A stretch of 64,000 bases of DNA, taken from the NCBI GenBank assembly GCA_963923945.1, contig OZ000551.1, forward strand, positions 1,752,413 through 1,816,412, given 5' to 3'. This DNA is from Alphaproteobacteria bacterium. GTDB lineage: Bacteria; Pseudomonadota; Alphaproteobacteria; G963923945. A program made the translations under genes and the position numbers. Numbering within the stretch: the stretch's first letter is position 1; every line of letters starts with the position of its first letter. The notes under the pieces are model-generated. The model did not search any database. It was given only the letters and a program-made list of their open reading frames with translations, and had not been told where the DNA came from. Below, piece after piece: positions 1 to 47,317 of this stretch.

Positions 1-1273
1 GATCATAGCCAATATGCGGGTTGAGGGCGGTCACCAGCATCAAGGAACGATTCATCAAATCATTGATTCGCTCCTCATTGGCAGTGATCCCGGTGATACA
101 GCGATCAACGAAACTGACCGTTGCGTCGGCCAGCAAGCGAATCGATTGCAAGACATTGTGAATGATCAGCGGCTTGAACACGTTGAGTTCAAAATGACCC
201 TGAGAACCGCCAACTGTCACCGCGACATGATTGCCCATGACCTGGGCACAGACTTGGGTCATCGCTTCACATTGGGTCGGGTTGACTTTGCCGGGCATGA
301 TAGAAGAGCCGGGTTCATTGGCTGGCAAAACCAATTCACCCAGACCACTACGTGGCCCGGAGGCCAGAAAGCGGATATCATTGGCGATTTTCATGCAAGA
401 GACCGCTATGCTGTTGAGGGCGGCGGATAGTTCAACCAAGGCATCATGGGCGGCCAAGGCTTCAAATTTATTATCAGCGGTCACGAAGGGCAATCGGGTG
501 ATTGCGGCGACTTGGGCGGCGAAGGCTTCGGCAAAGCCCTTTTTGGCATTGAGGCCGGTCCCCACCGCCGTACCCCCTTGGGCCAATTCCAAGATACGCG
601 GCAGGGTCTGCTCAACCCGTATGCGGCTGTATTCGATCTGTTTGGCGTAGCCGGAAAATTCTTGCCCTAAAGTCAGGGGGGTGGCGTCTTGGGTGTGGGT
701 CCGGCCGATCTTGATGAGGGTGCTGAAATCGCGACTTTTTTCGCTCAGCGCATCATGGAATCGGACCAAAGCCGGGAGCAGACGGTGATGGGTTTCCTCA
801 GCTGCAGCGATATGCATCGCGCTGGGAAATGTATCATTGGAAGATTGGCCACGATTACAATGATCATTGGGATGGACCGGGGTTTTGGAACCGATTGTTC
901 CGCCGAGTCTTTCAATGGCGCGGTTGGCGATGACTTCATTGGCATTCATATTCGATTGGGTGCCGGAGCCGGTCTGCCACACCACCAGAGGGAAATGATC
1001 ATCCCATTTTCCGTCAATGACTTCTTGGGCCGCCTCAATGATGGCTTGGGCGAGCGGTGCCTCCAACTCGCCGAGCATTTGATTGGCAAGAGCTGCCGCC
1101 TTTTTTTGAATCCCTAAAGCCCGAATCAGTGCTTTGGGCATCCGCTCATGACTGATTTTAAAATTTTCCAAGCTGCGCTGAGTTTGAGCACCCCAATACC
1201 GGTCAGCCGGGACCGCAATGTCCCCCATGCTGTCGGTTTCGGTGCGGGTGGGGTGGCTTGGTGTGGCGGTCAT
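1..1273 (-). CDS. fumC: fumarate hydratase class II, 3'-partial at window edge
   Basis: The reverse-strand translation from the ATG at 1273 gives [54 protein letters not shown]..., which matches the class II fumarase N-terminus; the ORF runs off the window, so it is absent from the ORF track. Confidence 0.85.
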
Positions 1274-1337
1274 GATGCGCTCCTCAACAGAGCTGGGAAA
1301 GGGTTGGCCAACTTGACAAAAATAACATGTACGGTGA

Positions 1338-1832
1338 TCAAGCGGTTTCTTTAGGGTTGCGGAAGGCGTCTAAAGAGATCACCTCGGCCTCACCGGTGTT
1401 TTTATCTTGGCTAGAGCCGGATTTAGACGGCGATAGAGCGGGTTTGGTGGTCGCGTTATCAGTATTCTCGCCGGGGGTATGGGGGCCGAATTGAAGATTG
1501 AATTGAGCTGACGGGTCGGCAAATAAGGTGACGCTGCGAAACGGAATCGCCAAAGTTTCGGGGGTTTTATTGAAATTGAGTGTGACTTTGAACCCTTGTT
1601 CTTCGACAATCAAATCCCAAAATTGATGCTGGAGAGCGATGGTCATTTCACGGGTATGGGTTGCCCGTAAATATTCGGGCAAGACAACATCGGGATCGGT
1701 GGTCCGGAAAGTGATATAGAAATAATGCCCCCCTGGAAGCCCGTTTTCGGCAACATGGGCCAAGGCGGCCCGCATGACACCCCGCGAGGCATCCTCAATC
1801 AGCACATCATAATCCAACCCGTCATCCGCCAC
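1338..1832 (-). CDS. SspB-like ClpXP adaptor (stringent starvation protein B family), tentative
   Basis: 164-aa ORF; N-terminal ~110 aa ([10 protein letters not shown]...[14 protein letters not shown]...) resembles alphaproteobacterial SspB, followed by a disordered Ser/Thr-rich tail. Confidence 0.45.
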
Positions 1833-2569
1833 CTGAATGATCCTCTTTTTTGGTTTTATTTGGCTTTGTCTCGTTTGGTCTTGTCTCGTTTGGTCTTGTC
1901 TTCATCAACATTGATCTTATGGGGTGGGTGCATCCGGTTGATCCGGTTGGCAACCCGGTTGGGGTGGGGGGCTTCTGTTGCCCGGCGCCCCCCGAGCCGC
2001 GCTTGCTTTAAGTCACCAAAGGACTAAGCAGCGAGAGCCAATTCATTATCGTTGGCATCTATAAAGATGAGCCGTTAACGGCGGCATCCCACCGGGTGAA
2101 AGTCAAGCCCTTTCCACATGCGTCGATCCTGTTTCGCCCCCATTCTTACAATAAATAACCCCAAATAACTCCGAAATAATCCCGCTTATGATTGAGGCAT
2201 CGCTGTCATCATTGAAAGATATTGCAGTCGATATCGTTCATAAAGAGACATCCCGTATCAATGGTGGAGGCGCCGGGTACTGCCCCCGGGTCCGCCACGG
2301 GTCTTGACATGACGTTTATCACCATAGTCGGAAAACCATTGCTGACTAACCGACTCTATGAATATAAACTTTTAAACTTGAGCTTGCAAAGGGCATATGA
2401 CATGACGGCTTAACCCATTGGCGATGGCTGTGGCAATCGGGCAAGCTGCGTTTTTATTGCCAAGCCGATGAATAGATGGGTGAATTGATGAAAGAAAATA
2501 GATCAAAAAATATGACAGTCCGTGTTGTTATTCCTGTTTCATTGATCTGTGAACTGAGTCGAGGACCCT

Positions 2570-3697
2570 TTGGCTGAGACTTTTCATTCCCCCATCGCTG
2601 GCCACCAGTCTGACCAGGAAGAGAGCAAGCCGACCCAACATGGTGTCGGCTCCCATGCACCATCCCGGCGGCTCTCGGCGCAGCAAGAGGTCGAGATTGC
2701 AGACCAAAGAAAGGAAAAAAATCAGACATTGCGCGACTGCGCACCGGATATAGAAGAGCGGCTTTATCATCATATCCCGGTTTTGGATCATGGTTTTGTC
2801 CGGGTGATTGATTATATGGGCACCGATGCTGCCATCGTCCAGGCGGCCCGGGTCTCCTATGGCCGGGGCACCAAAACCCCCAGTCAGGATGGTCGATTGA
2901 TTGATTATTTGATGCGTCACCAGCATTCGACTCCTTTTGAGATGTGCGAGATCAAACTGCATGTCAAATTGCCGATTTTTGTGGCCCGCCAATGGGTGCG
3001 CCACCGCACCGCCAGCATCAATGAATATTCGGCCCGCTATTCGATTTTGGATCGGGAATTTTATGTCCCGGATCGCTTCCATAAAGAAGCCTTGAAAGAA
3101 ATGCTGCGGCCAGACCCGGAAGCCTCAGCCAGTCCGCACCTGGATGTTTTCCACGAGGATTCGAAAAAAACCACCCTGGCCAAGCAATCCTCGACCAATA
3201 AGCAAGGCCGTGGGGATGCGGCTGAGGATGAAACCTTCAATCAGGCTTTGCGGGCCTTGCAGACCGAATCCAACCGGGCCTATACGACCTATGAAAAGCT
3301 TTTGAATGAGCGCGATGGCCAGCCGGTTGATCCCAGCCGTCACGGCTTGGCCCGGGAATTGGCCCGGATGATTTTGCCAACCAATTTTTATACCCAGTGG
3401 TATTGGAAAACCAATCTCCATAACCTGATGCATTTTCTGACCTTGCGGGCTGATCCCCATGCCCAATATGAAATTCGGGTTTATGCCGAGGCGATCATGG
3501 AGATTTTTCGCTGTTGGACGCCGCTGGCCTATGCTGCTTTTATCCGCCATCGCCGCGGCGGGGCGCGTCTCTCGGCCCCGGCCTTGGATGTGGTCCGGCG
3601 GTTGTTGAATGGCGAAAACGTAAATCTTGAGGAGAGTGGTCTCTCAGCGCGTGAATGGCGGGAATTGATGGTGGTGCTGGACCGGCCGGAGGCGTGA
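2570..3697 (+). CDS. thyX: flavin-dependent thymidylate synthase ThyX (start codon uncertain; has internal insertion and N-terminal extension)
   Basis: Contains the ThyX signature RHRTASINEYSARYS (RHRxxxxxS) and the N-terminal HGFVRVIDYMGTDAAIVQAARVSYG block. Confidence 0.85.
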   Translation: MAETFHSPIAGHQSDQEESKPTQHGVGSHAPSRRLSAQQEVEIADQRKEKNQTLRDCAPDIEERLYHHIPVLDHGFVRVIDYMGTDAAIVQAARVSYGRGTKTPSQDGRLIDYLMRHQHSTPFEMCEIKLHVKLPIFVARQWVRHRTASINEYSARYSILDREFYVPDRFHKEALKEMLRPDPEASASPHLDVFHEDSKKTTLAKQSSTNKQGRGDAAEDETFNQALRALQTESNRAYTTYEKLLNERDGQPVDPSRHGLARELARMILPTNFYTQWYWKTNLHNLMHFLTLRADPHAQYEIRVYAEAIMEIFRCWTPLAYAAFIRHRRGGARLSAPALDVVRRLLNGENVNLEESGLSAREWRELMVVLDRPEA

Positions 3698-4166
3698 AAA
3701 CAAAAGGCATGGAGACAGCCAGCGTCAAAATAAAAAAGCCGACGATTTTCTTGACCTGATGTGGTTCCCGGCGCCGGAAGCGGTATGTATAGATTGAGAA
3801 TACTTGTGAAGGAGAGTCGTTGATATGACGGCGGGACAATATGATAACGGGACAAGAGCAAGCACAATGGTTTGGGTTGGCGGCGTTGCTGGTGCATGAT
3901 GCGGCTGTTCAGAGCAAACCCCAAGGTCAAGAACAAGACGGAGCACCAACCTTGGGAAGAGATCGGGGATGTTTCGTGCCGCTGAGTGAAAATCGGTTTT
4001 ACCAGATTTTTAAGGTGAGGTGGGAATTGATAAGCCACGGATCTGGTTATAGTAACGGTCTGGAAAGAGTGAATTGCGCTGGCTTCTTTGCGGCGGCATG
4101 ATGGGGCCGGTCATGTGAGTGGCGACAAAAATAATAGAGTGAAAACAAGAGATTGGAGGGATTGAG

Positions 4167-4970
4167 ATGAATCTTTTAGGTAACGCGGTTCAACGGTTCC
4201 GATGGGCCGGGGTGGTGGTTGTATTGGGGATGTTGATATGCCCTCGCCTTGAGGCGGCTCCCCTTTCCTGTTTTGACTGGGATACGGCTGATTTTTTTGA
4301 GCAAGCCCGTTTGCAGGATGTGACGGCCTGCCTGGAAAAAGGATATGATCCCAATGCGCCTGATGAGTATGGATTGACGTCTTTGCATTTTGCGGCTCGG
4401 CACAGCAATCCAGCGGTGATCACCACTTTGCTGGATGCCGGGGCCGATCTTCAGGTTTTCGGTCCGTATATGAAAACGCCCCTCCATTATGCCGCCCATT
4501 ACAGTCAAAATCCGGCGGTGATCACCACCTTGTTGGATGCCGGGGCCGATCTTAAAGCTCTCGGCGGGTTCTATGGGGAAACGCCCCTCCATTATGCGGC
4601 TCGATTCAATAACAATCCGGCGATCCTCACCACCTTGTTGGCTGCCGGGGCGGATATTCAGGCCCCGGATAAAGATGATGAAACGCCTCTGCATGATGCG
4701 GCTGAATATAATCAAACCCCGGCCGTAATCACCGCTCTGCTGAATGCCGGGGCCGATCTTGAGGCGCTGAATAATCGCGGTGAGACTCCTTTGCATGACG
4801 CGGTTCGGGTCAATAAAAATCCGCAGATTGTTGCCACCTTACTGAAAGCCGGGGCCGATCCCAAAGCCCAGACCAAGGAGGGTAAACAGCCTTGGGAATT
4901 GGTCAAGAAAGACTCACCCCTTTATCAGAGTGCGGTTTATGAGGTTTTGCGGCAAGGCGAGACCGAATAA
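4167..4970 (+). CDS. secreted ankyrin-repeat protein (about 6 ANK repeats)
   Basis: N-terminal signal peptide (VVVLGMLICPRLEAAP); repeated TPLHxAA...NPAVITTLLxAGAD 33-aa units; N and C termini are paralogous to the next gene. Confidence 0.85.
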   Translation: MNLLGNAVQRFRWAGVVVVLGMLICPRLEAAPLSCFDWDTADFFEQARLQDVTACLEKGYDPNAPDEYGLTSLHFAARHSNPAVITTLLDAGADLQVFGPYMKTPLHYAAHYSQNPAVITTLLDAGADLKALGGFYGETPLHYAARFNNNPAILTTLLAAGADIQAPDKDDETPLHDAAEYNQTPAVITALLNAGADLEALNNRGETPLHDAVRVNKNPQIVATLLKAGADPKAQTKEGKQPWELVKKDSPLYQSAVYEVLRQGETE

Positions 4971-5093
4971 CCGGGTGGATGGCGGCGGGTCGGTTGATGG
5001 CATCGGTTCCAAGGCCAGATTATGATGGATGCTTCGCGGCGCTATGATGGGGTCGATTGTTCAATAGATTGAAAAGAGACTGAGGGGGTTCGG

Positions 5094-6938
5094 ATGAAGA
5101 CTTTAGATATTGTCGATGCGGCGCGTTTTATATGCCCGATGACCAAACGGTTCGGCTGGGCGGTTGTGTTGGGGCTGTTGATGCTGGTGCCTGCGCGGGC
5201 TGAGGCGACTCTCTCCTGTTCGGACTGGAATACGTATGATTTTTTCAACCAAGCCAGCCCGCAAGATGTGACGGCTTGTCTGGATGCCGGGGCGGATATT
5301 CAGGCCCGCAATAAGGATGGATGGACTCCCTTACATCTTGCGGCGGGACTCAATGAAAACCCGGCGGTGATTACCACCTTGCTGAAAGCCGGAGCGGATA
5401 TTCAGGCCCGCAATAAAGATGGATGGACTCCCCTGCATCAGGCAGCGGGATTCAATGAAAACCCGGCGGTGATTACCACCTTGCTGAAAGCCGGGGCGGA
5501 TATTCAGGTGCGCAATAAGGATGGATTCACTCCCCTGCATCTTGCGGTGGAATTCAATGAAAATCCGGAAATGATTACCACCTTGCTGAAAGCCGGGGCC
5601 GATCTTGAGGCCCAGCACAAGGATGGATGGACTCCCCTGCATTATGCGGCGGAAGACAATGAAAATCCGGAAATGATTACCACCTTGCTGAAAGCCGGAG
5701 CGGATATTCAGGCCCGCAATAAAGATGGATTCACTCCCTTGCATTCTGCGGCGGGATTCAATGAAAACCCGGCGGTGATTACCACCTTGCTGAAAGCCGG
5801 GGCGGATATTCAGGTGCGCAATAAGGATGGATGGACTCCCCTGCATCAGGCAGCGGGATTCAATGAAAACCCGGCGGTGATTACCACCTTGCTGAAAGCC
5901 GGAGCGGATATTCAGGCCCGCAATAAAGATGGATTCACTCCCTTGCATTCTGCGGCGGGATTCAATGAAAACCCGGCGGTGATTACCACCTTGCTGAAAG
6001 CCGGGGCGGATATTCAGGCCCGCGATAAGGATGGGGCGACTCCTCTGCATTATGCGGCGGGAGGCAATGAAAATCCGGAAATGATTACCACCTTGCTGAA
6101 AGCCGGAGCGGATATTCAGGCCCGCAATAAAGATGGATTCACTCCCTTGCATTCTGCGGCGGGATTCAATGAAAACCCGGCGGTGATTACCACCTTGCTG
6201 AAAGCCGGAGCGGATATTCAGGTGCGCAATAAAGATGGATGGACTCCCCTGCATCAGGCAGCGGGATTCAATGAAAACCCGGCGGTGATTACCACCTTGC
6301 TGAAAGCCGGGGCGGATATTCAGGTGCGCAATAAAGATGGATGGACTCCCCTGCATTATGCGGCGGAAGACAATGAAAATCCGGAAATGATTACCACCTT
6401 GCTGAAAGCCGGGGCCGATCTTGAGGCCCAGCACAAGAATGGATGGACTCCCCTGCATCAGGCAGCGGGATTCAATGAAAACCCGGCGGTGATCAGCAGC
6501 CTGCTGGAAGCCGGGGCGGATATTCAGGCCCGCGCTAAGAATGGATTGACTCCCCTACATCTTGCGGCTCGGTATAATGAAACCCCGGCGGTGGTTACCA
6601 CTTTACTGAAAGCTGGGGCTGATTCTAACGCCCGCAATGAGGATAGGGCGACTCCTCTGCATTTTGCGGCGGGAGGCAATGAAAACCCGGAAATGATTAC
6701 CACCTTGCTGAAAGCCGGAGCGGATATTCAGGCCCGCGATAAGGATGGGGCGACTCCTCTGCATTTTGCGGCGGGAGGCAATGAAAACCCGGAAATGATC
6801 ACCACCCTGCTGAAAGCCGGGGCCGATCCCAAAGCTCGGACCAAGGAGGGTAAACAGCCTTGGGAGTGGGTTCCTGAGGATTCTCCCTTGCGTGAAAGTG
6901 CGGTTTACTGGATTTTGCATGAGGCTCAATTTCAATAA
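5094..6938 (+). CDS. secreted ankyrin-repeat protein with about 15 near-identical tandem ANK repeats
   Basis: Signal peptide (AVVLGLLMLVPARAEA); 33-aa units such as AGFNENPAVITTLLKAGADIQARNKDGWTPLHQA, encoded by nearly identical 99-bp DNA repeats. Confidence 0.9.
   Translation: MKTLDIVDAARFICPMTKRFGWAVVLGLLMLVPARAEATLSCSDWNTYDFFNQASPQDVTACLDAGADIQARNKDGWTPLHLAAGLNENPAVITTLLKAGADIQARNKDGWTPLHQAAGFNENPAVITTLLKAGADIQVRNKDGFTPLHLAVEFNENPEMITTLLKAGADLEAQHKDGWTPLHYAAEDNENPEMITTLLKAGADIQARNKDGFTPLHSAAGFNENPAVITTLLKAGADIQVRNKDGWTPLHQAAGFNENPAVITTLLKAGADIQARNKDGFTPLHSAAGFNENPAVITTLLKAGADIQARDKDGATPLHYAAGGNENPEMITTLLKAGADIQARNKDGFTPLHSAAGFNENPAVITTLLKAGADIQVRNKDGWTPLHQAAGFNENPAVITTLLKAGADIQVRNKDGWTPLHYAAEDNENPEMITTLLKAGADLEAQHKNGWTPLHQAAGFNENPAVISSLLEAGADIQARAKNGLTPLHLAARYNETPAVVTTLLKAGADSNARNEDRATPLHFAAGGNENPEMITTLLKAGADIQARDKDGATPLHFAAGGNENPEMITTLLKAGADPKARTKEGKQPWEWVPEDSPLRESAVYWILHEAQFQ
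5290..6830 (+). repeat. coding tandem array of 99-bp units with higher-order near-exact repeats over 200 bp
   Basis: Direct reading shows blocks such as ...caataaagatggattcactcccttgcattctgcggcgggattcaatgaaaacccggcggtgattaccaccttgctgaaagcc... recurring almost verbatim; the antisense ORF 5331-6458 is a repeat artefact. Confidence 0.9.
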
Positions 6939-6996
6939 CTGGCACGGATGGCGTTCGGGTCTCTCGGTGGTGTGCTGATACGGGAGCACTCAATCG

Positions 6997-7530
6997 GTGA
7001 TCGGTGATTCTCGGGTTTCTCATCCCGTTTTCCATCCGGCTTCGGTGATCCGGGTGCTGTTTTTATGTACCGGCAATGCGGCCCGCTCGATTCTCGCTGA
7101 AGCTCTGTTGAACCGTCTGGGTCAAGGCCGCTTTCGGGCCTATTCAGCCGGGGCCAATCCCAAGGGAAAGGTTCATCCGCACGCATTGCGGCTGCTCAGT
7201 GATTTGGGTTTTGCCACCGATGGGATGCGCTCCAAAAGCTGGCAAGAGTTCCAAAACACCGATGCACCCGGCCTGGATGTCGTCATCACGGTCTGTGACG
7301 GGGCGGCTGAACAGTGCCCGGTTTGGACCGGCCAGCCGCTGAGCGCCCATTGGGGGATGCCCGATCCGGCCACAGCCAGCGGCGATGCGATGGCCCCGGC
7401 GTTCCGACAGGCCTATCAGACCCTTGAGAATCGAATCGCTGCATTTCTCGCCTTGCCCTGGTCAGAGAGCGACCGGTCAAGCCTGCAGCAGCAACTCAAC
7501 GCCATTGGCCATGATGATGTGACCGCATGA
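6997..7530 (+). CDS. arsC: arsenate reductase, thioredoxin-coupled LMW-PTPase family
   Basis: CX5R P-loop LFLCTGNAARS and downstream Cys pair VITVCDGAAEQCP, as in Bacillus-type ArsC; the true start is probably downstream of the annotated Met. Confidence 0.65.
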   Translation: MIGDSRVSHPVFHPASVIRVLFLCTGNAARSILAEALLNRLGQGRFRAYSAGANPKGKVHPHALRLLSDLGFATDGMRSKSWQEFQNTDAPGLDVVITVCDGAAEQCPVWTGQPLSAHWGMPDPATASGDAMAPAFRQAYQTLENRIAAFLALPWSESDRSSLQQQLNAIGHDDVTA

Positions 7531-7608
7531 TTGTGCTGAATCAATTTTCGGTCATTTGACCGGTGATTTTTCCTCTGATGGCTGGATTGCAGTATCTTAA
7601 GAGCCGGG

Positions 7609-8715
7609 TCAATTCACCACAATCCGCGGGGCTTTATCGGTCTGGCTTAAAAGAGTGAGTTTCTCCCAGATTTTTTTGCCGATATCGAGATAACGCTTGG
7701 CATGTTCACCATCCGGTTCAGCCATTAGGATCGGCTGCCCGCCATCAGCGTTCTGGCGGATGCGGATATCCAAAGGAATTTCACCCAAAAAATCGGCCCC
7801 GATGCGGGCCGCCTCGGCCCGTGCCCCGCCATGACCAAAAATCTCACTGCGCTCCCCACAATGGGGGCAGGTGAAATAACTCATATTCTCAATCAGACCA
7901 ACCACCGGCACCGCAACCTTGCGGAACATATTCAGCCCCTTGCGGGCATCAATCAGGGCGATATCTTGCGGGGTTGAGACAATGACTGCTCCGGTTAAAG
8001 GAACCCGTTGCGACAAGGTGAGTTGAGCATCCCCGGTGCCCGGCGGCAGATCAATCACCAGGATATCCAGGTGGCCCCACTCCACATCAGCGAGCATTTG
8101 TTCAATCGCCCCCATCACCATCGGGCCGCGCCAGATCATCGGTGTATCTTCGGCCACCAGCATCCCCATCGACATACAGGCCAGGCCATGGGCTTGCATC
8201 GGCAGCAGTTTTTTATCACCCGAAGCGGTTTCTGGCTGGCCGGAAAGGCCCAACATACGCGGAATTGAAGGACCATAAATATCGGCGTCCATGAGACCGG
8301 TCCGCAACCCCATCAAGCAAAAGGCAGCAGCCAGATTGACTGCGGTGGTTGATTTACCGACCCCACCCTTGCCAGAGGCCACCGCGAGAATGGTTTTTAC
8401 TCCATCCAGGACCATCTTACTCTGGTTGCCCCTCGGCGCGGCTTGATTGGCTGGTGCGGGGCGTTCAGCGGTCATGACCGCACTAACCGATAGCACCCCT
8501 TCCAGATCGGCGACCGCCGCTTCGGCGGCTTTGCGGGTGGCTTCAAGACGCTCAGCCCGTTGGGGATCAATCTCCAACGTAAAGCCGACATTGCCATCAC
8601 GGATGACAATCCCGGAGACCATTTTGAGACTAACGATATCATCATTGCGATCCGGGTCGCGCACCCGGCGCAAGGCCTCAAGCACAGCCGATTGATCAAG
8701 AGCGGAAGAAGTCAT
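7609..8715 (-). CDS. apbC: Fe-S cluster carrier ATPase Mrp/ApbC (NBP35 family)
   Basis: Walker A ASGKGGVGKSTTAVNLA, CPHC motif (FTCPHCGERSEIF), N-terminal DUF59-like domain. Confidence 0.85.
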   Translation of the reverse strand: MTSSALDQSAVLEALRRVRDPDRNDDIVSLKMVSGIVIRDGNVGFTLEIDPQRAERLEATRKAAEAAVADLEGVLSVSAVMTAERPAPANQAAPRGNQSKMVLDGVKTILAVASGKGGVGKSTTAVNLAAAFCLMGLRTGLMDADIYGPSIPRMLGLSGQPETASGDKKLLPMQAHGLACMSMGMLVAEDTPMIWRGPMVMGAIEQMLADVEWGHLDILVIDLPPGTGDAQLTLSQRVPLTGAVIVSTPQDIALIDARKGLNMFRKVAVPVVGLIENMSYFTCPHCGERSEIFGHGGARAEAARIGADFLGEIPLDIRIRQNADGGQPILMAEPDGEHAKRYLDIGKKIWEKLTLLSQTDKAPRIVVN

Positions 8716-9115
8716 GATACGGTTTTCATGATGATACGATTTCCATTACTTAAGAGGGTATTTTTAGAAATATTCACGACATGCATATTGTGAATGATTG
8801 CGGTGTTGTGAATGATTGCGGTGTTGGACCTTTTGTCATATAAGGCAAAGTGATTGGAAGTTTATGTTTTTGACATGATTTTGAATGTCTCAATCCTATA
8901 TACTTTATTATGCATTATGAATAATAATTGTATGAATAATAATTGATTGTGGTGCACGGACAATCAATGACGTTCAATAATGATTCATGCAATCATGATT
9001 GATATGAAGATGCGGCCGCAGACAGGTATTTTAATCGGCCCTTCCTTTATATGAGATTTGATTTTGGTGGAACACCACATTTTTGTGGAATCTTCAGTGG
9101 AGAAACAATCGAACA

Positions 9116-10231
9116 ATGCCTTGGTCTAATCGCGGCGGCGGCCCTGCAAATAATCCCGGCCCTTGGGGGAGCGGTGGCGGCGGTATGAACGGTGGTGGTG
9201 GCCAACCACCCGATATTGATGATATCATACGTGACGGTAAGGAGAAATTTCGTTCTCTGTTTTCCGGTGGTGGCCACGGTAAGCTGATTTGGTTGTTGCT
9301 GGTTGTGGCCATAATCTTATGGGGGTTGAGCGGCTTTTACCGGGTCAATACCACCGAGCAAGGGGTGGTTTTGCGTTTTGGGGCCTGGGTCAGAACAACC
9401 CAGCCCGGCCTTCACTATCATATCCCAAGACCGATTGAGACGGTTTTAACCCCCGATGTCACCACAGTGAACCGGGTCGAGGTCGGGTTTCGATCAGCCG
9501 GTAACATCAGGGGTGCTGAATCCTCACGCAATGTCCCCGAAGAGGCATTGATGCTGACCGGGGATGAAAATATTGTTGATATCAGCTTTACGGTTTTTTG
9601 GGTCATCAAAGATGCTGGTGAATATTTGTTCAATGTCCGTAACCCCAAGCAAACGGTCAAAAGCGTTTCTGAAAGCGCCATGCGTGATGTCATTGGTCGC
9701 ACCCCTATCGGACCCATCCTTTCCGAAGGCAAGACGGCGATCACCGATCAAGCCAAAACGCTCATTCAGAATATTCTGGACGGCTACAAAGCCGGGATCA
9801 GCATTCAACAGGTGCGGCTGAATCGAACCGATCCGCCTGAGCAAGTGATTGAGGCTTTTCGCGATGTCCAGCGCGCTAAGACCGATCAAGAACGGTTGCG
9901 TAACCAGGCCGAGGCCTACCGCAATGATATTCTGCCCCGGGCTCGCGGCAATGCGGAAAAAATCATCCAGGCCGGGAAGGCATATAAAGAGAAGGTCATT
10001 GTCACTGCTGAGGGCAACGCCCAGCGGTTTTTATCCATTTATGGTGCCTATAAAACCGATAAAGAGGTCATTAAGAAACGCATTTATCTTGAAACAATGG
10101 AAGAGGTTTTCTCCCAGATTGATAAGGTGATTATTGATGACTCCGCCCAAGGTGATGATGGGGTATTGACCTATCTTCCTCTGCCGGAAATCCGCAAAAG
10201 AGCCGCCGAAACAACAGAGCAGGAGCAATAA
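9116..10231 (+). CDS. hflK: protease modulator HflK
   Basis: MPWSNRGGGP... Gly-rich N-terminus, TM helix and SPFH/band-7 domain; immediately followed by hflC. Confidence 0.85.
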   Translation: MPWSNRGGGPANNPGPWGSGGGGMNGGGGQPPDIDDIIRDGKEKFRSLFSGGGHGKLIWLLLVVAIILWGLSGFYRVNTTEQGVVLRFGAWVRTTQPGLHYHIPRPIETVLTPDVTTVNRVEVGFRSAGNIRGAESSRNVPEEALMLTGDENIVDISFTVFWVIKDAGEYLFNVRNPKQTVKSVSESAMRDVIGRTPIGPILSEGKTAITDQAKTLIQNILDGYKAGISIQQVRLNRTDPPEQVIEAFRDVQRAKTDQERLRNQAEAYRNDILPRARGNAEKIIQAGKAYKEKVIVTAEGNAQRFLSIYGAYKTDKEVIKKRIYLETMEEVFSQIDKVIIDDSAQGDDGVLTYLPLPEIRKRAAETTEQEQ

Positions 10232-10233
10232 TC

Positions 10234-11100
10234 ATGATGAGTCAGGGTAAAATTTTTGGCGTGGTTGTCTTGGCGTTATTGGCACTTGTTGCTTATGGCA
10301 GCTTGTTTACGGTTAGCCAGATTCATCAAGCGATTGTCCTGCAATTTGGTGAGCCTAAGCGGGTTATCCGTGATCCAGGTCTGCATGCCAAGCTGCCTTT
10401 TATTCAGAATGTGGTCGAATATGATAAGCGTATCTTGGATTATGATCATCCGGTGCAAGAAGTGATTGCCCTGGATAAAAAGCGGCTGTTGGTTGATGCT
10501 TTTGCCCGCTATCGCATCGTTAACCCCTTGGAGGTTTATAAACGTGCTTCAACAGAGGGCCAGGTCTTACGCTTGCTGGGACCGATTCTTGATGCTGATT
10601 TACGTAGTGTTGTCGGTTTGGTGCCTTTGAATTCCCTGCTTAGTGATGAGCGTGAGGAAATTATGGCGCGTATCCGCAAGCGGGTAAATACCAAGCTCGA
10701 ACCGATTGGGCTTGAGGTTCTTGATGTGCGTATTCGTCGGGCTGATCTGCCCACTCAGAACAGCCAAGCAATTTATGAACGTATGAAGAGCGAACGCGAA
10801 CGCGAAGCCAAGGATTTACGGGCTAAAGGTGCCGAAGTGGCACAAAAAATCCGCTCTGAGGCGGATCGTGAGCGCACCGTCATCTTGGCACAAGCGGATA
10901 AAGAAGGCGAGATTTTACGCGGTGAAGGCGATGGGAAGGCCAATGATATTTATGCCGATGCTTTTGGTCGTGACCCGGAATTTTTCAAATTTTATCGCTC
11001 AATGCAAGCCTATCGAAAATCCCTGACTTCCCGCGATACATTGGTTCTCAGCCCGGATGGCGATTTTTTTGAATATTTCAATGAGACCAACCAGCCATAG
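10234..11100 (+). CDS. hflC: protease modulator HflC
   Basis: SPFH domain protein 3 nt after hflK; N-terminal TM (IFGVVVLALLALVAYGSLF). Confidence 0.85.
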   Translation: MMSQGKIFGVVVLALLALVAYGSLFTVSQIHQAIVLQFGEPKRVIRDPGLHAKLPFIQNVVEYDKRILDYDHPVQEVIALDKKRLLVDAFARYRIVNPLEVYKRASTEGQVLRLLGPILDADLRSVVGLVPLNSLLSDEREEIMARIRKRVNTKLEPIGLEVLDVRIRRADLPTQNSQAIYERMKSEREREAKDLRAKGAEVAQKIRSEADRERTVILAQADKEGEILRGEGDGKANDIYADAFGRDPEFFKFYRSMQAYRKSLTSRDTLVLSPDGDFFEYFNETNQP

Positions 11101-11203
11101 CGGGTCCATCGCTGATAGGGTGCCGAATTTATGATACCGGGTTGCTCCTTTGGTGGAGGCAATAAACTATATGGTGATGATCCTGTGATGATCCTGTTGC
11201 GCG

Positions 11204-11392
11204 ATGGATGATTTTTTAACCGCCTTGGCGTTGGTCTTGGTCATTGAGGGCAGCGCTTATGCTCTCTTTCCCGTGGCTGTCAAACGGATGGCTGCTTATG
11301 CTGCCAAAATGCCAGATCATTTTTTGCGGATCGGCGGCTTGGGGGCGGCCATTTTAGGGGTGGTGGCGGTTGCCCTCATCCGCGCGGCTTAA
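11204..11392 (+). CDS. DUF2065 small membrane protein
   Basis: 62-aa two-TM protein in the conserved position between hflKC and degP. Confidence 0.5.
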   Translation: MDDFLTALALVLVIEGSAYALFPVAVKRMAAYAAKMPDHFLRIGGLGAAILGVVAVALIRAA

Positions 11393-11415
11393 GGGTACTC
11401 TGATACCCTTTAAGA
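11393..11415 (+). terminator. possible intrinsic terminator after the DUF2065 gene
   Basis: taaGGGTActctgaTACCCttt: a 5-bp stem, 6-nt loop and a short T tract directly after the stop codon. Confidence 0.3.
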
Positions 11416-11762
11416 CCGCCTTTAATGACAGTGTCTTGAGCATATTTATACTCTCAAGCATATTGATATGACTTTAAGTTGCGTTCAATAATCAACGATC
11501 AGTATTGCAGCGTGATGCCATGAGCAAGATTTTAAAGACAAAATTGTAACGACAAGATTTTAAGCAGGGGTTCTGGGAGTCTTTATCGGATACTGTGAAT
11601 ATTTAAGATGCTGAGGTGATTGTCATATTTACACCATATTGGTGTTCCATTTCTGATTGTTGGCGGTATTTTTAGTCATGTATTCTCACTCATCACGTAT
11701 TTGTTTTCATTAAACACATAATTTTAATACTGTCGTATTTTTATATTGGAGGTCGGATCACG

Positions 11763-13331
11763 ATGTCTTTGTCGCATATGATCACGCATATCACTGTTTC
11801 GCGCCTTGTTATCATCCGTCTTGTTATCATCCGTCTTGGGGCCATTTTTTTGGTCCCGCGCGGTGGGTTCAAGAGGCCCCGCTTAGCGGGTGGTTTTCCT
11901 GTTGCATTTGTGGTTGCCCTGGTTTCCTGCCTGTTATGGGTTTCTCCTAGTGCAGCCCGTCCGGCCCCTGATGGTTTTGCTGATCTGGCCGAGAGATTGT
12001 TGCCTGCGGTGGTTAATATCTCGACCACTCAAGAGATGCAGCAAAGTGAGATGGAGCCCAATTTTCCGGTTCCAAAACTGCCACCCGGTTCCCCTTTTGA
12101 AGATTTTTTCCGCGACTTCATGGAACGTGGTCGTCCCAACCCCCACCGCAACAGTCACTCGCTCGGTTCTGGATTCGTCATTGATTCGGGTGGCTATATT
12201 GTCACCAACAACCATGTCATTGCTGAAGCATCTGAGGTGCGGGTAATCTTCCACGATGGGAAACAACTTGAAGCTGAGGTTATTGGTCGTGACGATAAAA
12301 CGGATTTGGCCCTGCTTAAAGTGGAGAGTGACACCCCTTTGGTTGCGGTTCCTTTTGCTGATTCCGATCAGGCCCGGGTCGGTGATTGGGTGGTGGCCAT
12401 CGGCAATCCCTATGGTCTTGGCGGAACGGTGACGGCGGGGATTATTTCGGCCCGGGCTCGGGATATCAATTCCGGTCCTTATGACGATTATATTCAGACC
12501 GATGCCTCAATTAACCGAGGCAATTCCGGGGGGCCTTTGTTCAACCTGCAAGGTGAAGTGGTGGGCGTTAACACGGCGATTTTTTCGCCAACCGGCGGCA
12601 GTATTGGGATCGGTTTTTCGATTCCGGCCAATTTGGCCAAGCCGGTGCTGGCGCAATTACGTGAGTTTGGTCAGACCCGTCGCGGTTGGCTGGGTGTGCG
12701 GATTCAGCAAGTGACCGATGAAATTGCCGATAGCCTGGGGATGAAGGAAGAAACCGGTGCTCTGGTGGCCAAGGTCAATCCCGGCGAACCAGCAGCCAAA
12801 GCCGGTATAAAACCAGGCGATGTCATTATTGAATTTGATGGCAAGCTGGTGCCGGGTGTACGTAAGCTTCAACGTATTGTCGCTGAAACCGATATCAATC
12901 GACCGGTTCGGGTCACAGTGTGGCGCGATGAGGGCGAGAAAGTCCTGACCGTCACCGTGGGGGAGCTTGAATCCTTTGAAAAGGCGGCCCTCTCGAAAAG
13001 CGGTGATGATACAACCCAAACCACCACCCAGTTTGATGGTATGGGGATGACGCTCTCTTCCTTGACCCCTAATCTGCGCCGCCAATTTGATCTCAAAGAT
13101 GTTGATGCCGGTGTGGTGATCACCGATGTCGATAAAGATGGTCAAGCCGCCGAGCGCGGGCTGCGCCAGGGCGATGTGATTGTCGAAGTGGGGCAAGAAG
13201 AGGTCAATTCACCCGATCAGATCAGTCAAAAATTGGAAGAAGCCGCCAAAAAAGATAAAAAATCTGTGTTGTTTCTGGTCGAACGTGAAGGCGATTTACG
13301 CTTTATTCCGATGAAATTACGTTCGGGCTAG
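11763..13331 (+). CDS. degP: periplasmic serine endoprotease DegP/HtrA (start probably downstream, near the signal peptide)
   Basis: Catalytic triad context (GNSGGPL), trypsin-like domain plus two PDZ domains; signal-like segment AFVVALVSCLLWVSPSAA. Confidence 0.85.
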   Translation: MSLSHMITHITVSRLVIIRLVIIRLGAIFLVPRGGFKRPRLAGGFPVAFVVALVSCLLWVSPSAARPAPDGFADLAERLLPAVVNISTTQEMQQSEMEPNFPVPKLPPGSPFEDFFRDFMERGRPNPHRNSHSLGSGFVIDSGGYIVTNNHVIAEASEVRVIFHDGKQLEAEVIGRDDKTDLALLKVESDTPLVAVPFADSDQARVGDWVVAIGNPYGLGGTVTAGIISARARDINSGPYDDYIQTDASINRGNSGGPLFNLQGEVVGVNTAIFSPTGGSIGIGFSIPANLAKPVLAQLREFGQTRRGWLGVRIQQVTDEIADSLGMKEETGALVAKVNPGEPAAKAGIKPGDVIIEFDGKLVPGVRKLQRIVAETDINRPVRVTVWRDEGEKVLTVTVGELESFEKAALSKSGDDTTQTTTQFDGMGMTLSSLTPNLRRQFDLKDVDAGVVITDVDKDGQAAERGLRQGDVIVEVGQEEVNSPDQISQKLEEAAKKDKKSVLFLVEREGDLRFIPMKLRSG

Positions 13332-47136: not shown

Positions 47137-47317
47137 ATAAAGTCTCTTTCTCTAGAACGGCGATTTTAGAAAAATTTCCTTAAAAAAAGGTCGCCAGATA
47201 TTTGACCATCTCAGGGACCAGCGTCAAGCATGGGGTTGCCTATAATTGTCAATCCAATGAGAGACTTTGTTGGCGCAATGTTATATCCTCAAATTTCATA
47301 TTGTAGAAAGACCGGAA

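What the first reader, a model, noticed from the sequence alone, without database searches (positions are those of the whole stretch)
4167..6938. Tandem pair of secreted ankyrin-repeat paralogs; the second carries about 15 near-identical 99-bp repeats with higher-order exact repeats over 200 bp
Ankyrin-repeat proteins with Sec signal peptides are uncommon in free-living bacteria and typical of host-associated or intracellular lineages, where they act on eukaryotic targets. The two genes share N-terminal (LSC[SF]DW[ND]T.DFF.QA..QDVTACL) and C-terminal (GADPKA.TKEGKQPWE...SAVY) caps but differ roughly 2.5-fold in repeat number. This suggests expansion or contraction by unequal recombination. The repeats alternate between a few unit types (…IQARNKDGFTPLHSA / …LEAQHKDGWTPLHYAAED…), and stretches of 200-400 bp recur verbatim. 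The locus is therefore probably copy-number unstable and liable to short-read assembly collapse.
Basis: partly seen in the sequence, partly recalled or inferred. Interest (0 to 1): 0.7.

Follow-up and report, generated by a model that had tools for sequence, protein, structure and literature searches.

The report
Two exported, capped ankyrin-repeat genes
Two neighbouring genes in a small-genome alphaproteobacterium encode exported ankyrin-repeat binding proteins of a widespread but unnamed family, whose named members all come from metagenome-assembled genomes, several labelled like marine-sponge symbionts; one gene has a very regular 15-repeat array, so this is a good example of a known kind, not a new one.

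Summary
ORFs 4167-4970 (267 aa) and 5094-6938 (614 aa) are ankyrin-repeat (ANK) proteins with signal-peptide-like N-termini and shared caps.

- **Repeat unit:** it is 102 bp (34 aa), not 99 bp.
- **Array:** there are 15 units, and three of them are identical.
- **Exact repeats:** the longest is 144 bp (246 bp with 2 mismatches), not 200-400 bp.

Both genes belong to a large unnamed family. Its members have a signal peptide or lipobox, then an N-cap C-x2-W-N-T-x2-FF…C-L with two cysteines 20 residues apart, then 34-residue ANK units with an NxNP motif, then a degenerate C-cap GK(T/Q)PW(D/E). A profile of the N-cap finds 2,140 cluster representatives.

In homologs the capped module always lies outside the cytoplasm, for example after a kinase transmembrane helix or after Ig-like surface repeats. 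Every homolog that carries a name is a MAG, several with sponge-style labels.

The pair, together with an arsC-like gene, is a lineage-specific insert in a conserved thyX|mrp junction. Its base composition matches the surrounding genes.

The most likely function is an envelope or extracellular binding scaffold, possibly directed at a host. The ank2 array was enlarged and homogenised by in-register recombination. I could not test habitat, target or copy-number instability. Verdict: new member of a known kind, modest interest.

The parts
4155..4159 (+). Shine-Dalgarno-like GGAGG, 7 nt upstream of the ank1 ATG
   Evidence: Read directly from the sequence.
4167..4970 (+). ank1: 267-aa exported ankyrin-repeat protein with one module: signal peptide, N-cap, 5 repeats, C-cap
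   Evidence: ORF. Pfam Ank_2 8.6e-38. AlphaFold2 pLDDT 93, pTM 0.85, with 5 regular helix pairs plus cap helices. Foldseek best matches are ANK/DARPin structures at E about 1e-13.
4167..4256 (+). ank1 signal-peptide-like segment (residues 1-30: MNLLGNAVQRFRWAGVVVVLGMLICPRLEA)
   Evidence: It has basic residues (R10, R12), a 13-residue hydrophobic core and an L-E-A|A end. AlphaFold2 confidence is low (56-68) for residues 1-30 and high afterwards. In 80 homologs the cap starts within 5 residues of an AxA-type site. No predictor was run.
4260..4340 (+). ank1 N-cap (residues 32-58) with C35, W38 and C55
   Evidence: C35, W38 and C55 are invariant in a 32-sequence alignment. The Cys-Cys spacing is 20 residues in 243 of 248 homolog caps. 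The model shows helices 41-46 and 49-57.
4341..4853 (+). ank1 repeat array: 5 units spaced 33, 35, 34 and 34 aa apart
   Evidence: TSLH/TPLH anchors at 4377, 4476, 4581, 4683 and 4785. TRF period 105 for 4406-4655.
4854..4967 (+). ank1 C-cap (GADPKAQTKEGKQPWELVKKDSPLYQSAVYEVLRQGETE), a degenerate final ANK unit
   Evidence: It aligns with the family C-cap GK(T/Q)PW(D/E)…Y..L. The DNA is nearly identical to the ank2 C-cap.
4971..5093 (+). 123-bp spacer between the genes, with a promoter-like site at 4997-5026 and GAGGGGG at 5082-5088 ahead of the ank2 ATG
   Evidence: Consensus scan, which is not above the shuffle expectation. Sequence read directly. Part of it is alignable with the ank1 upstream region.
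5094..6938 (+). ank2: 614-aa exported ankyrin-repeat protein with one module: signal peptide, N-cap, 15 repeats, C-cap
   Evidence: ORF. Pfam Ank_2 1.4e-133 with 15 Ank stretches. AlphaFold2 single-sequence pLDDT 82, pTM 0.74, with 15 helix pairs at 34-residue spacing.
5094..5201 (+). ank2 signal-peptide-like segment (residues 1-36). An alternative start at M16 (5139) gives MTKRFGWAVVLGLLMLVPARA|EA
   Evidence: The sequence shows basic residues, a hydrophobic core and A-R-A|E. The better ribosome-binding site precedes 5094. AlphaFold2 confidence is low for residues 1-40.
5208..5285 (+). ank2 N-cap (TLSCSDWNTYDFFNQASPQDVTACLD), cysteines C42 and C62
   Evidence: A degenerate DNA pattern for C-x2-WNT-x2-FF-x2-A-x7-C hits only 5217-5279 in the window, with 0 expected by chance. 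The same pattern hits 14 caps in three homolog loci.
5286..6815 (+). 15 head-to-tail 102-bp units (34 aa each), in frame. Units 5, 7 and 9 are identical. In-register exact segments reach 144 bp
   Evidence: TRF. Unit table and identity matrix. Exact and near-exact repeats. Six of 34 codons carry 392 of 734 non-synonymous pairwise differences and no synonymous ones.
6816..6935 (+). ank2 C-cap (AGADPKARTKEGKQPWEWVPEDSPLRESAVYWILHEAQFQ)
   Evidence: It closely resembles the C-cap of homolog P0224.
6997..7530 (+). arsC-like low-molecular-weight phosphatase gene, possibly co-transcribed, and part of the same variable insert
   Evidence: Pfam LMWPc 4e-18. NCBIfam arsC_pI258_fam scores 66 bits, below its 174-bit cut-off. 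It is absent from all 80 related thyX loci.
7548..7563 (+). Terminator-like hairpin followed by a T-run, the first on the + strand after ank1-ank2-arsC
   Evidence: Consensus scan only.

Best explanation
ank1 and ank2 are two single-module members of a large, unnamed family of exported ankyrin-repeat binding proteins.

**Shown**
- Each protein starts with a Sec-type signal sequence.
- An N-terminal capping hairpin follows (C-x2-W-N/D-T-x2-FF-x2-A…V-x2-C-L), with two cysteines 20 residues apart.
- A run of 34-residue ankyrin units follows. These are the classical 33 residues plus one extra in an NxNP turn.
- The protein ends in a degenerate capping unit, GK(Q/T)PW(E/D)…Y..L.

**Inferred**
- The proteins cross the inner membrane through Sec and fold outside the cytoplasm.
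- The two cysteines form a disulfide that staples the N-cap.
- The concave face of the solenoid binds a macromolecule at the cell envelope, at the cell surface or in the surroundings.
- The most likely partner is a component of an animal host, probably a sponge, as proposed for sponge-symbiont and Ankyphage ankyrin proteins that lower phagocytosis.

**History of the locus (inferred from the sequence)**
- A whole gene unit was duplicated in tandem.
- The downstream copy then grew to 15 units, and is kept homogeneous, by in-register unequal recombination or gene conversion.
- Amino-acid differences are retained almost only at the binding-face positions.
For: **Fold and identity**
- Pfam hits for both proteins.
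- AlphaFold2 models of ank1 (pLDDT 93) and ank2 (pLDDT 82, 15 regular helix pairs).
- Foldseek matches to ANK and DARPin structures.

**Family**
- 139 of 244 homologs have the cap within the first 80 residues and 194 have it somewhere.
- C35, W38 and C55 are invariant.
- The Cys-Cys spacing is 20 residues in 243 of 248 caps.
- The cap profile finds 2,140 representatives at E<=1e-3 and 810 at E<=1e-10 among 1.84 billion.
- No Pfam model covers the cap residues.

**Location outside the cytoplasm**
- The cap follows an AxA-type site in 80 homologs and a lipobox in 25.
- In P0006 it follows a Ser/Thr kinase and a transmembrane helix. In P0072 it follows a lipobox and four Ig-like repeats.

**Host link**
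- Named homologs are MAGs of Gemmatimonadota, Cyanobacteria (IRC3_bin), Synechococcus (SB0670_bin), Truepera, Rhodobacteraceae and Spirochaetia.
- Ankyrin proteins are enriched in sponge-associated Gemmatimonadota and Deinococcota (PMC8163846).
- Sponge-symbiont ankyrin proteins and the signal-bearing phage ANKp reduce phagocytosis (PMC4850255; 10.1101/608950).
- An identical RecJ sits on a 2.10-Mb contig, and an 80%-identical one sits on a circular 2.07-Mb genome.

**Recombination and selection**
- In-register exact segments at offsets of 2, 4 and 8 units.
- Duplicated flanks.
- Six codons hold 53% of the non-synonymous differences and no synonymous ones. Three of them (unit positions 13, 21, 22) correspond, by my own alignment to the DARPin consensus as I recall it, to its randomised binding positions 5, 13 and 14.
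- ank2 is the longest and most homogeneous array among 244 homologs. It is longer than any of 318 modules in further representatives.
Against: - The habitat of the window organism is unknown. The sponge link rests on a few named MAGs and on my recollection of naming conventions.
- Sec export reaches only the periplasm. No route across the outer membrane is visible in the window, and sponge MAGs mostly lack secretion systems (PMC8163846).
- Lipoprotein and kinase-fused relatives suit an envelope or sensor role as well as a host-directed one.
- Free-living Desulfomonile tiedjei has 19 signal-bearing ankyrin proteins (PMC3932732).
- The disulfide is inferred only. 54 caps lack the first cysteine.
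- No signal-peptide predictor was run, and the ank1 cleavage site (L-E-A|A) is not canonical.
- No target is known.
- The concentration of differences on binding-face positions could reflect relaxed constraint rather than selection.
Confidence: 0.6

Rival explanations
1. These are periplasmic or envelope proteins that work on the bacterium's own molecules, for example as a chaperone, an inhibitor or immunity protein, or a sensor or adhesin domain. In that case they have nothing to do with a eukaryotic host.
For: - Only a Sec signal is present, with no secretion system nearby.
- Relatives are anchored as lipoproteins or fused to a transmembrane Ser/Thr kinase.
- The genes sit in a core housekeeping block with host-like GC and GC3.
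- Signal-bearing ankyrin proteins exist in free-living bacteria (PMC3932732).
- From memory, not tested here: Pseudomonas aeruginosa AnkB and Bdellovibrio Bd3460 are periplasmic ankyrin proteins.
Against: - No conserved partner gene exists. The neighbours differ in the window and in four homolog loci.
- Module number, repeat number and surface residues are highly variable, and arrays have expanded recently. This is more typical of interaction with a changing external partner.
- Named relatives are MAGs, several with sponge-style labels.
- None of 80 related alphaproteobacterial loci carries such genes at this junction, so the function is not a conserved housekeeping one.
Confidence: 0.27
2. 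These are effectors injected into eukaryotic cells by a type IV or type III system, like the Legionella, Coxiella, Rickettsia or Wolbachia ankyrin proteins.
For: Generic ankyrin similarity to the NCBIfam Dot/Icm families AnkY, AnkH, AnkG and AnkX and to Wolbachia phage WO ankyrin genes at no more than 34% identity.
Against: - All NCBIfam scores are far below the cut-offs, for example 284 against 600 bits for AnkY. The matches are repeat-to-repeat only.
- An N-terminal Sec signal and a conserved cysteine pair are not expected for injected effectors.
- Relatives place the module outside the membrane.
- The window shows a metabolically complete, walled, rod-shaped bacterium.
Confidence: 0.04
3. 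The long regular array is an assembly artefact (mis-joined or collapsed repeats), or the gene came in on a phage or another mobile element.
For: - Units 5, 7 and 9 are identical, and near-exact segments reach 246 bp.
- Signal-bearing ankyrin genes occur on sponge phages (10.1101/608950).
Against: - The reading frame stays open through all 15 units, and the units form an ordered mosaic rather than one collapsed copy.
- Exact repeats are at most 144 bp.
- An identical RecJ lies on a 2.10-Mb contig, and a relative is a circular 2.07-Mb contig, which suggests long-read assemblies.
- There are no phage, integrase or transposase genes next to the pair.
- No viral contig matches the protein or the cap pattern.
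- GC and GC3 match the neighbours.
Confidence: 0.06

Closest known systems
Ankyrin-repeat 'eukaryote-like proteins' of marine sponge symbionts (Nguyen, Liu & Thomas 2014, as summarised in PMC4850255; enrichment data in PMC8163846)
   Same: - Bacterial multi-repeat ankyrin proteins that are chromosomally encoded and often present in several copies.
- The nearest named homologs of ank1 and ank2 are MAGs from phyla reported as ankyrin-enriched in sponges.
- The proposed role, binding host components outside the bacterium, fits Sec export.
   Different: - The origin of the window is unknown.
- No functional test was possible.
- The conserved cysteine-pair N-cap, the 34-residue unit and the C-cap are not mentioned in the passages I read of the five papers opened.
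- I could not compare with the tested proteins, because their sequences are not held here.
Ankyphage ANKp (Jahn et al., bioRxiv 10.1101/608950)
   Same: An ankyrin protein with an N-terminal signal peptide and no transmembrane domain. It is predicted to be secreted and was shown to lower phagocytosis and inflammatory signalling.
   Different: - ANKp is phage-encoded and short (a 568-nt gene).
- Here there is no phage context.
- No match was found in IMG/VR for the protein or for the cap pattern.
- GenBank phages give only generic ankyrin matches at no more than 34-40% identity.
Designed ankyrin repeat proteins (DARPins) and other consensus ankyrin proteins (PDB 4o60, 6mol and others)
   Same: - Near-identical consensus-like repeats between dedicated N- and C-capping units.
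- Variation is concentrated at a few positions on the concave face.
- They are the best structural matches (E about 1e-13, TM up to 0.82) and sequence matches.
   Different: - This is a natural protein with 34-residue rather than 33-residue units.
- It is exported.
- Its caps are unrelated in sequence to DARPin caps and carry a cysteine pair.
Legionella/Coxiella Dot/Icm ankyrin effectors (NCBIfam NF0430xx)
   Same: Bacterial ankyrin proteins thought to act on eukaryotic targets.
   Different: - All family scores are far below the cut-offs.
- Those effectors have no Sec signal and are delivered by a T4SS.
- They have few, divergent repeats plus other domains.
Eukaryotic ankyrin-R/B membrane-binding domain (PDB 4rlv, 24 repeats)
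   Same: A long uninterrupted ankyrin solenoid. It is the best sequence match in the PDB (E=4.4e-94). From established knowledge, its inner groove binds extended peptides.
   Different: It is a cytoplasmic eukaryotic protein with divergent 33-residue repeats and no signal peptide or cysteine cap.

Membership tests
Ankyrin repeat superfamily (Pfam Ank, Ank_2, Ank_3, Ank_4, Ank_5) | Score above the Pfam gathering thresholds, and a helix-turn-helix repeat solenoid | tested here: met
   - Ank_2 scores 129 and 436 bits against a cut-off of 27.3.
- The AlphaFold2 models show regular helix pairs.
- Foldseek matches ANK structures at E about 1e-13.
Capped, exported 34-residue ankyrin family (unnamed; defined here from homologs) | N-cap C-x2-W…C-[LIVM] with the cysteines 20 residues apart, directly after an export signal | tested here: met
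   - ank1 has C35, W38 and C55. ank2 has C42, W45 and C62.
- The spacing is 20 residues in 243 of 248 homolog caps.
- These positions are invariant in alignments A3 and A4.
- The cap profile finds 2,140 representatives.
Capped, exported 34-residue ankyrin family (unnamed; defined here from homologs) | 34-residue units with an NxNP turn, and a C-cap G-K-(T/Q)-P-W-(D/E)…Y..L | tested here: met
   - All 14 anchor spacings in ank2 are 34 residues.
- In the homologs, 671 spacings are 34 and 302 are 33.
- The C-cap motif is present in both window proteins and in 44 of 244 homologs under a strict pattern.
Capped, exported 34-residue ankyrin family (unnamed; defined here from homologs) | Actual export and a disulfide in the cap | not testable with these tools
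   This is inferred from the signal-like N-termini, the lipobox variants and the kinase-TM fusions. It needs experiments.
Sponge-symbiont ankyrin 'eukaryote-like proteins' | Encoded by a bacterium that lives in a sponge | tested here: inconclusive
An identical RecJ lies on an unnamed 2.10-Mb contig, which could not be retrieved from the contig index.
- Only the names of some homolog MAGs point to sponges.
Sponge-symbiont ankyrin 'eukaryote-like proteins' | Alters phagocytosis or another host process | not testable with these tools
   Literature only.
Dot/Icm type IV ankyrin effectors (NCBIfam equivalogs AnkY, AnkH, AnkG, AnkX, AnkC, AnkQ, AnkI) | Score above the curated equivalog cut-off | tested here: not met
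   The best score is 284 bits against a cut-off of 600 (AnkY). All others are lower relative to their cut-offs.
Phage-encoded ankyrin (Ankyphage ANKp type) | The gene lies in a phage genome or prophage | tested here: not met
   - The neighbours are thyX and an arsC-like gene within a conserved chromosomal block.
- No IMG/VR match.
- PHROG hits are generic ankyrin families of unknown function.
Ankyrin-type immunity proteins of polymorphic toxin systems | Located immediately next to a toxin gene | tested here: not met
   - No toxin domain flanks the pair.
- No toxin domain is adjacent to the homologs in L081-L084.
- One weak phage hit is annotated as an immunity protein, at 33% identity over 42% of the query.
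Anti-phage defence systems with ankyrin components (PADLOC) | A specific model hit together with the system's partner genes | tested here: not met
   There are only repeat-level hits to PDC-M72A, Ankyrin and MzaA. No partner genes lie nearby.

The most novel reading that the evidence does not exclude
The cysteine-stapled 'C-x2-WNT…C-L' cap together with its 34-residue ankyrin units may be a distinct, so far undescribed extracytoplasmic binding domain. Bacteria deploy it as free exported proteins, as lipoproteins, as surface-adhesin tips and as the sensor part of transmembrane kinases. Long, homogeneous, aromatic-lined arrays such as ank2 may then bind a periodic extracellular polymer, for example a host matrix protein or a glycan. 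Repeat number would be tuned by recombination, as in a length-variable contingency locus.
Probability: 0.2. Interest if true: 0.55.

Novelty: new member of a known kind. Interest (0 to 1): 0.35.

Why it matters
Exported ankyrin proteins are among the leading candidates for how extracellular symbionts of sponges and other filter feeders avoid being eaten. Their targets and their route out of the cell are unknown.

This locus is a clean example. One species carries a short and a long version side by side, with intact caps and an unusually regular array.

The family-level features found here offer handles for sorting the thousands of metagenomic 'ankyrin repeat proteins' into a testable class. 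These features are the invariant cysteine pair 20 residues apart, the strict placement outside the cytoplasm, and the modules that occur either as separate genes or fused together.

None of this changes current understanding. It refines an existing picture.

Tried and rejected
- **Exact look-ups.** Look-ups of ank1, ank2 (two alternative starts) and HflC found nothing. An identical RecJ (P0245) exists on a 2.10-Mb contig, but it could not be retrieved from the contig index. Strain comparison was therefore impossible.
- **Genome scan.** I spent the genome-contig scan on ThyX. It was useful for synteny but did not identify the organism.
- **Metagenome scan.** The scan with ank1 gave two 32%-identity hits only.
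- **Viral scans.** Three approaches found nothing usable. A single protein gave no hits. A degenerate DNA pattern for the cap gave no hits, although it worked as a positive control on the window and on homolog loci.
- **Cluster look-up.** A look-up of ten NCBI-sourced homologs returned no names.
- **Phage and plasmid tblastn.** These gave only generic ankyrin similarity.
- **NCBIfam, PADLOC and PHROGs.** There were only repeat-level hits.
- **Promoter and terminator scan.** Promoter-like sites were not above chance. The seven minus-strand 'terminators' inside ank2 are the repeated AVITT-coding palindrome, not signals.
- **Antisense ORFs.** The long antisense ORFs at 4176-4796 and 5331-6458 are repeat shadows.
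- **Recent horizontal transfer.** I considered and rejected it on composition grounds.
- **tmRNA island.** I also rejected insertion at the tmRNA gene. Its 3' end points away from the pair, and thyX lies between them.

Full report
**1. What is in the sequence**

Two ORFs on the + strand occupy exactly the reported coordinates: 4167-4970 (267 aa, here ank1) and 5094-6938 (614 aa, here ank2). Both are ankyrin-repeat proteins. Pfam Ank_2 gives E=8.6e-38 and 1.4e-133, and the Ank model finds 15 stretches in ank2.

Tandem Repeats Finder reports one array at 5286-6827 with period 102, 15.1 copies, 84% matches and score 2030. The repeat finder gives the same 102-bp spacing throughout.

Cutting the array in register gives 15 units followed by a divergent C-terminal cap. 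Units 5, 7 and 9 are identical at the DNA level. Units 2, 6 and 10 differ from one another by 2-4 bases. Units 12-15 are the most divergent.

The longest exact repeats are 144, 141, 127 and 110 bp, all at offsets that are whole multiples of 102 bp. With two mismatches, one 246-bp segment recurs four units downstream. The claim of exact repeats over 200 bp, or 200-400 bp verbatim, is therefore overstated. The picture of a mosaic of a few unit types is correct.

No other ankyrin motif occurs anywhere else in the 64-kb window.

**2. Anatomy of the two proteins**

They are 54% identical and share the same architecture.

- *N-terminus.* Both have a signal-peptide-like start: basic residues, a hydrophobic core, then L-E-A|A in ank1 and the canonical A-R-A|E in ank2. 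This is read from the sequence, because no predictor was available. AlphaFold2 gives low confidence to residues 1-30 of ank1 and 1-40 of ank2, and high confidence afterwards.
- *Start codons.* The ATG at 4167 is preceded by GGAGG. The ATG at 5094 is preceded by GAGGGGG.
- *N-cap.* The mature proteins begin with LSC(F/S)DW(D/N)T.DFF.QA..QDVTACL, which the model folds as a helix pair.
- *Repeats and C-cap.* Five (ank1) or fifteen (ank2) regular helix pairs follow. A final degenerate unit, GKQPWE…SAVY, closes the protein.
- *Models.* ank1 scores pLDDT 93 and pTM 0.85. ank2 scores pLDDT 82 and pTM 0.74 from a single sequence. The ank1 model matches consensus ankyrin and DARPin structures (Foldseek E about 1e-13). 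The best sequence match in the PDB is the 24-repeat ankyrin-R/B domain.

**3. Variation within the ank2 array**

Six codons of the 34 (positions 13, 18, 21, 22, 27 and 28 of the unit as cut) carry 392 of the 734 non-synonymous pairwise differences. They carry none of the synonymous ones. The other 28 codons carry 443 synonymous and 342 non-synonymous differences.

I aligned the unit to the DARPin consensus as I recall it, anchoring on the TPLH motif. Under that alignment, positions 13, 21 and 22 correspond to the randomised binding positions 5, 13 and 14. Position 18 lies on the same helix face. The framework is therefore being homogenised, while differences persist mainly on the concave binding face. 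The residues there are largely aromatic (W, F, Y).

**4. The tandem duplication**

The similarity between the two genes extends into the flanks.

- A block about 25 nt upstream, GCGGCG..ATGATGGGG.CG, is shared.
- The C-cap DNA is almost identical.
- The first roughly 30 bases after the stop codon are also shared.

A whole gene unit was therefore duplicated, and the C-cap region may since have been converted between copies. The in-register offsets of 2, 4 and 8 units within ank2 are what unequal crossing-over or gene conversion produces. This mechanism is an inference from the pattern.

**5. Genomic setting**

The window is alphaproteobacterial. It carries a two-piece tmRNA (ARAGORN; Rfam alpha_tmRNA at 217 bits) and has 50.5% GC.

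Its other genes are ordinary housekeeping genes: sspB, thyX, mrp/apbC, hflKC, degP, miaA, ilvB, ilvC, leuA, mreBC, pbp2, rodA, recJ, psd, pssA, acrAB, guaB and guaA.

A scan of species-representative genomes with ThyX returned 80 loci at 55-62% identity. In these, the order SspB(-), ThyX(+), Mrp(-), HflK, HflC, DegP is conserved from Rhodospirillales to Pelagibacterales. thyX and mrp are often only tens of bases apart.

None of the 80 loci has ankyrin motifs within 10 kb, and none has the arsC-like gene. The 3.9 kb between thyX and mrp in the window (ank1, ank2 and arsC-like) is therefore a lineage-specific insert in a variable junction of a conserved block.

GC (54%) and GC3 (0.56-0.57) match the neighbouring genes. 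There is no integrase, transposase or phage gene beside the pair. A recent transfer is therefore not indicated.

A RecJ search found three things.

- An identical protein lies on a 2,099,932-bp contig, presumably the source genome.
- An 80%-identical protein lies on a circular 2,069,867-bp contig with the same local gene order.
- Otherwise nothing exceeds 53% identity apart from two short-contig relatives at 85% and 78%.

The organism thus belongs to a small, deep-branching clade with genomes of about 2.1 Mb. It is clearly not a reduced intracellular bacterium.

**6. The family**

The search with ank2 returned 7,501 proteins at E<=1e-10, the best at 45-62% identity. The search with ank1 returned 1,622 at E<=1e-5. 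I inspected the 244 listed sequences.

- *Position of the cap.* 139 sequences have the motif C-x2-W…C-[LIVM] within the first 80 residues, and 194 have it somewhere. It lies within 5 residues of an AxA-type site in 80 sequences and after a lipobox plus linker in 25.
- *Cysteine spacing.* The two cysteines are 20 residues apart in 243 of 248 instances.
- *Invariant residues.* In a 32-sequence alignment, C35, W38 and C55 of ank1 are invariant.
- *Modular build.* Many homologs of about 1,000 aa contain several such caps, up to five or six, each followed by a few ankyrin units. The family is built from modules that occur either fused or as separate genes. Locus L081 carries a tandem pair plus a third gene.
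- *Size of the family.* A 35-position profile of the cap alone finds 2,140 cluster representatives at E<=1e-3 and 810 at E<=1e-10 among 1.84 billion.
- *No existing model.* No Pfam model covers the cap residues.

**7. Topology clues from relatives**

- P0006 is a Ser/Thr kinase followed by a transmembrane helix, a proline-rich linker, the cap, 13 near-identical 34-residue units and the C-cap.
- P0072 has a lipobox, four Ig-like repeats, the cap and 12 units.

Together with the signal-peptide and lipoprotein variants, this places the capped module consistently outside the cytoplasm. The conserved cysteine pair fits an oxidising compartment. A disulfide is inferred and not shown, and 54 caps lack the first cysteine.

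**8. How unusual is ank2?**

- Among the 244 homologs, the longest regular run is 13 units and the highest mean identity between units is 0.74. ank2 has 15 units and 0.79.
- Among 318 modules in 130 further representatives, the maximum is 12 anchors.
- Bacterial ankyrin proteins average 4.3-6.1 repeats (PMC3932732).

ank2 is thus an extreme of its family. Similar recently expanded arrays (P0006, P0072) show that the process recurs.

**9. Habitat and function**

Few homologs carry names. Those that do are all MAGs.

- Gemmatimonadota with locus tags F4123, F4139 and F4Z85.
- 'Cyanobacteria bacterium MAG IRC3_bin_20…' (GCA_026702625.1).
- 'Synechococcus sp. SB0670_bin_20'.
- Truepera, Rhodobacteraceae and Spirochaetia.

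I recognise several of these labels, from memory, as sponge-microbiome MAG sets. I did not confirm this: SB0670 does not occur in the main text of PMC8163846.

The literature that I did read gives the following.

- Ankyrin proteins are enriched in sponge-associated MAGs relative to seawater MAGs, notably in Gemmatimonadota and Deinococcota. Most such MAGs lack classical secretion systems (PMC8163846).
- Sponge-symbiont ankyrin proteins expressed in E. coli modulate amoebal phagocytosis (PMC4850255 summarising Nguyen et al. 2014).
- A sponge-phage ankyrin protein with a signal peptide lowers phagocytosis and inflammatory signalling (10.1101/608950).

The most likely function is therefore an exported binding scaffold that acts on host components. 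This step is inferred. The habitat of the window organism is unknown. Sec export reaches only the periplasm. Free-living Desulfomonile tiedjei has 19 signal-bearing ankyrin proteins. A role at the bacterium's own envelope remains a serious rival.

**10. Rivals tested**

- *Legionella-type injected effectors.* All NCBIfam equivalogs score far below their cut-offs.
- *Phage origin.* There is no viral match for the protein or the cap pattern, and GenBank phages give only generic similarity.
- *Defence systems and toxin immunity.* There are only repeat-level hits and no partner genes.
- *Plasmids.* Only generic similarity.
- *Assembly artefact.* This is unlikely, given the open frame, the ordered mosaic, exact repeats of at most 144 bp and the megabase-scale contigs. 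It was not directly testable.

**11. Verdict**

Tandem paralogy and recombinational expansion are supported. Host association is plausible but unproven. An intracellular lifestyle is not supported, and instability could not be tested.

The locus is a new member of a known kind, namely exported bacterial ankyrin 'eukaryote-like' proteins. The added value lies at the family level: a conserved cysteine-pair cap, strict placement outside the cytoplasm and a modular build. As far as the libraries and papers consulted here show, these features have not been named.

Noticed in passing
window 1338-2393 (- strand): sspB lies directly beside the two-piece (permuted) alphaproteobacterial tmRNA gene, whose tag peptide is ANDNELALAA. 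From memory, SspB is the adaptor that hands ssrA-tagged proteins to ClpXP. The SspB-ThyX adjacency recurs in most of the 80 related loci.
   Followed up: partly
window 1-13331 and loci L001-L080: The block SspB(-), ThyX(+), Mrp(-), HflK, HflC, DegP is conserved from Rhodospirillales to Pelagibacterales. The thyX|mrp junction is a variable slot holding 0 to about 10 kb of different cargo in different genomes.
   Followed up: partly
window 2570-3697: The ThyX ORF has a long N-terminal extension. It also has an insertion of about 50 residues inside the Thy1 domain: Pfam covers residues 78-318 with a 191-position profile. Two Dongiaceae MAGs share the longer form (918-nt match against about 822 nt elsewhere).
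   Followed up: no
window 3698-4166: A 470-bp stretch between thyX and ank1 has no convincing gene and no Rfam match. It has the strongest GC skew in the first 14 kb (+0.34). Only an 86-aa ORF (3841-4101) lies there.
   Followed up: no
window 6997-7530: An arsC-like low-molecular-weight phosphatase gene (CTGNxxRS motif; NCBIfam arsenate reductase models all below cut-off) sits 58 bp after ank2. Like the ankyrin pair, it is absent from all 80 related loci.
   Followed up: partly
window 4176-4796 and 5331-6458 (- strand): Long antisense ORFs of 206 and 375 aa run through the ankyrin genes. They are by-products of the repeat, because the repeated unit has no stop codon in that frame. The seven 'terminator-like' hairpins on the minus strand are the same repeated palindrome GGTGGTAATCACCGCC.
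   Followed up: yes
homologs P0006 and P0072: - P0006 fuses a Ser/Thr protein kinase and a transmembrane helix to a capped 13-unit ankyrin array, which looks like a receptor kinase with an ankyrin ectodomain.
- P0072 puts the capped array after four near-identical Ig-like repeats on a lipoprotein.
   Followed up: partly
loci L082, L083, L081: Single ORFs contain up to five capped modules: cap pattern at 10091, 10766, 11219, 11645 and 12029 in L082. L082 also carries IS66 and IS110 transposases. L083 carries two toxin-antitoxin pairs near the ankyrin gene.
   Followed up: partly
L087 (ena:ERZ25067576:ctg10958_20x_c, 169078-190847): A circular 2.07-Mb relative (RecJ 80% identical) keeps the window's gene order from leuA to acrB. 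It differs between rodA and recJ: the window has tRNA-Lys, tRNA-Glu and an aldehyde dehydrogenase there, and the relative has a methyltransferase and a small ORF.
   Followed up: no
window 43073-44149, 47267-48118 and 34964-36055: Two ORFs of 358 and 283 aa have no Pfam match at E<=1e-5. A 363-aa protein combines weak bacterial Ig-like hits with a C-terminal LysM domain.
   Followed up: no
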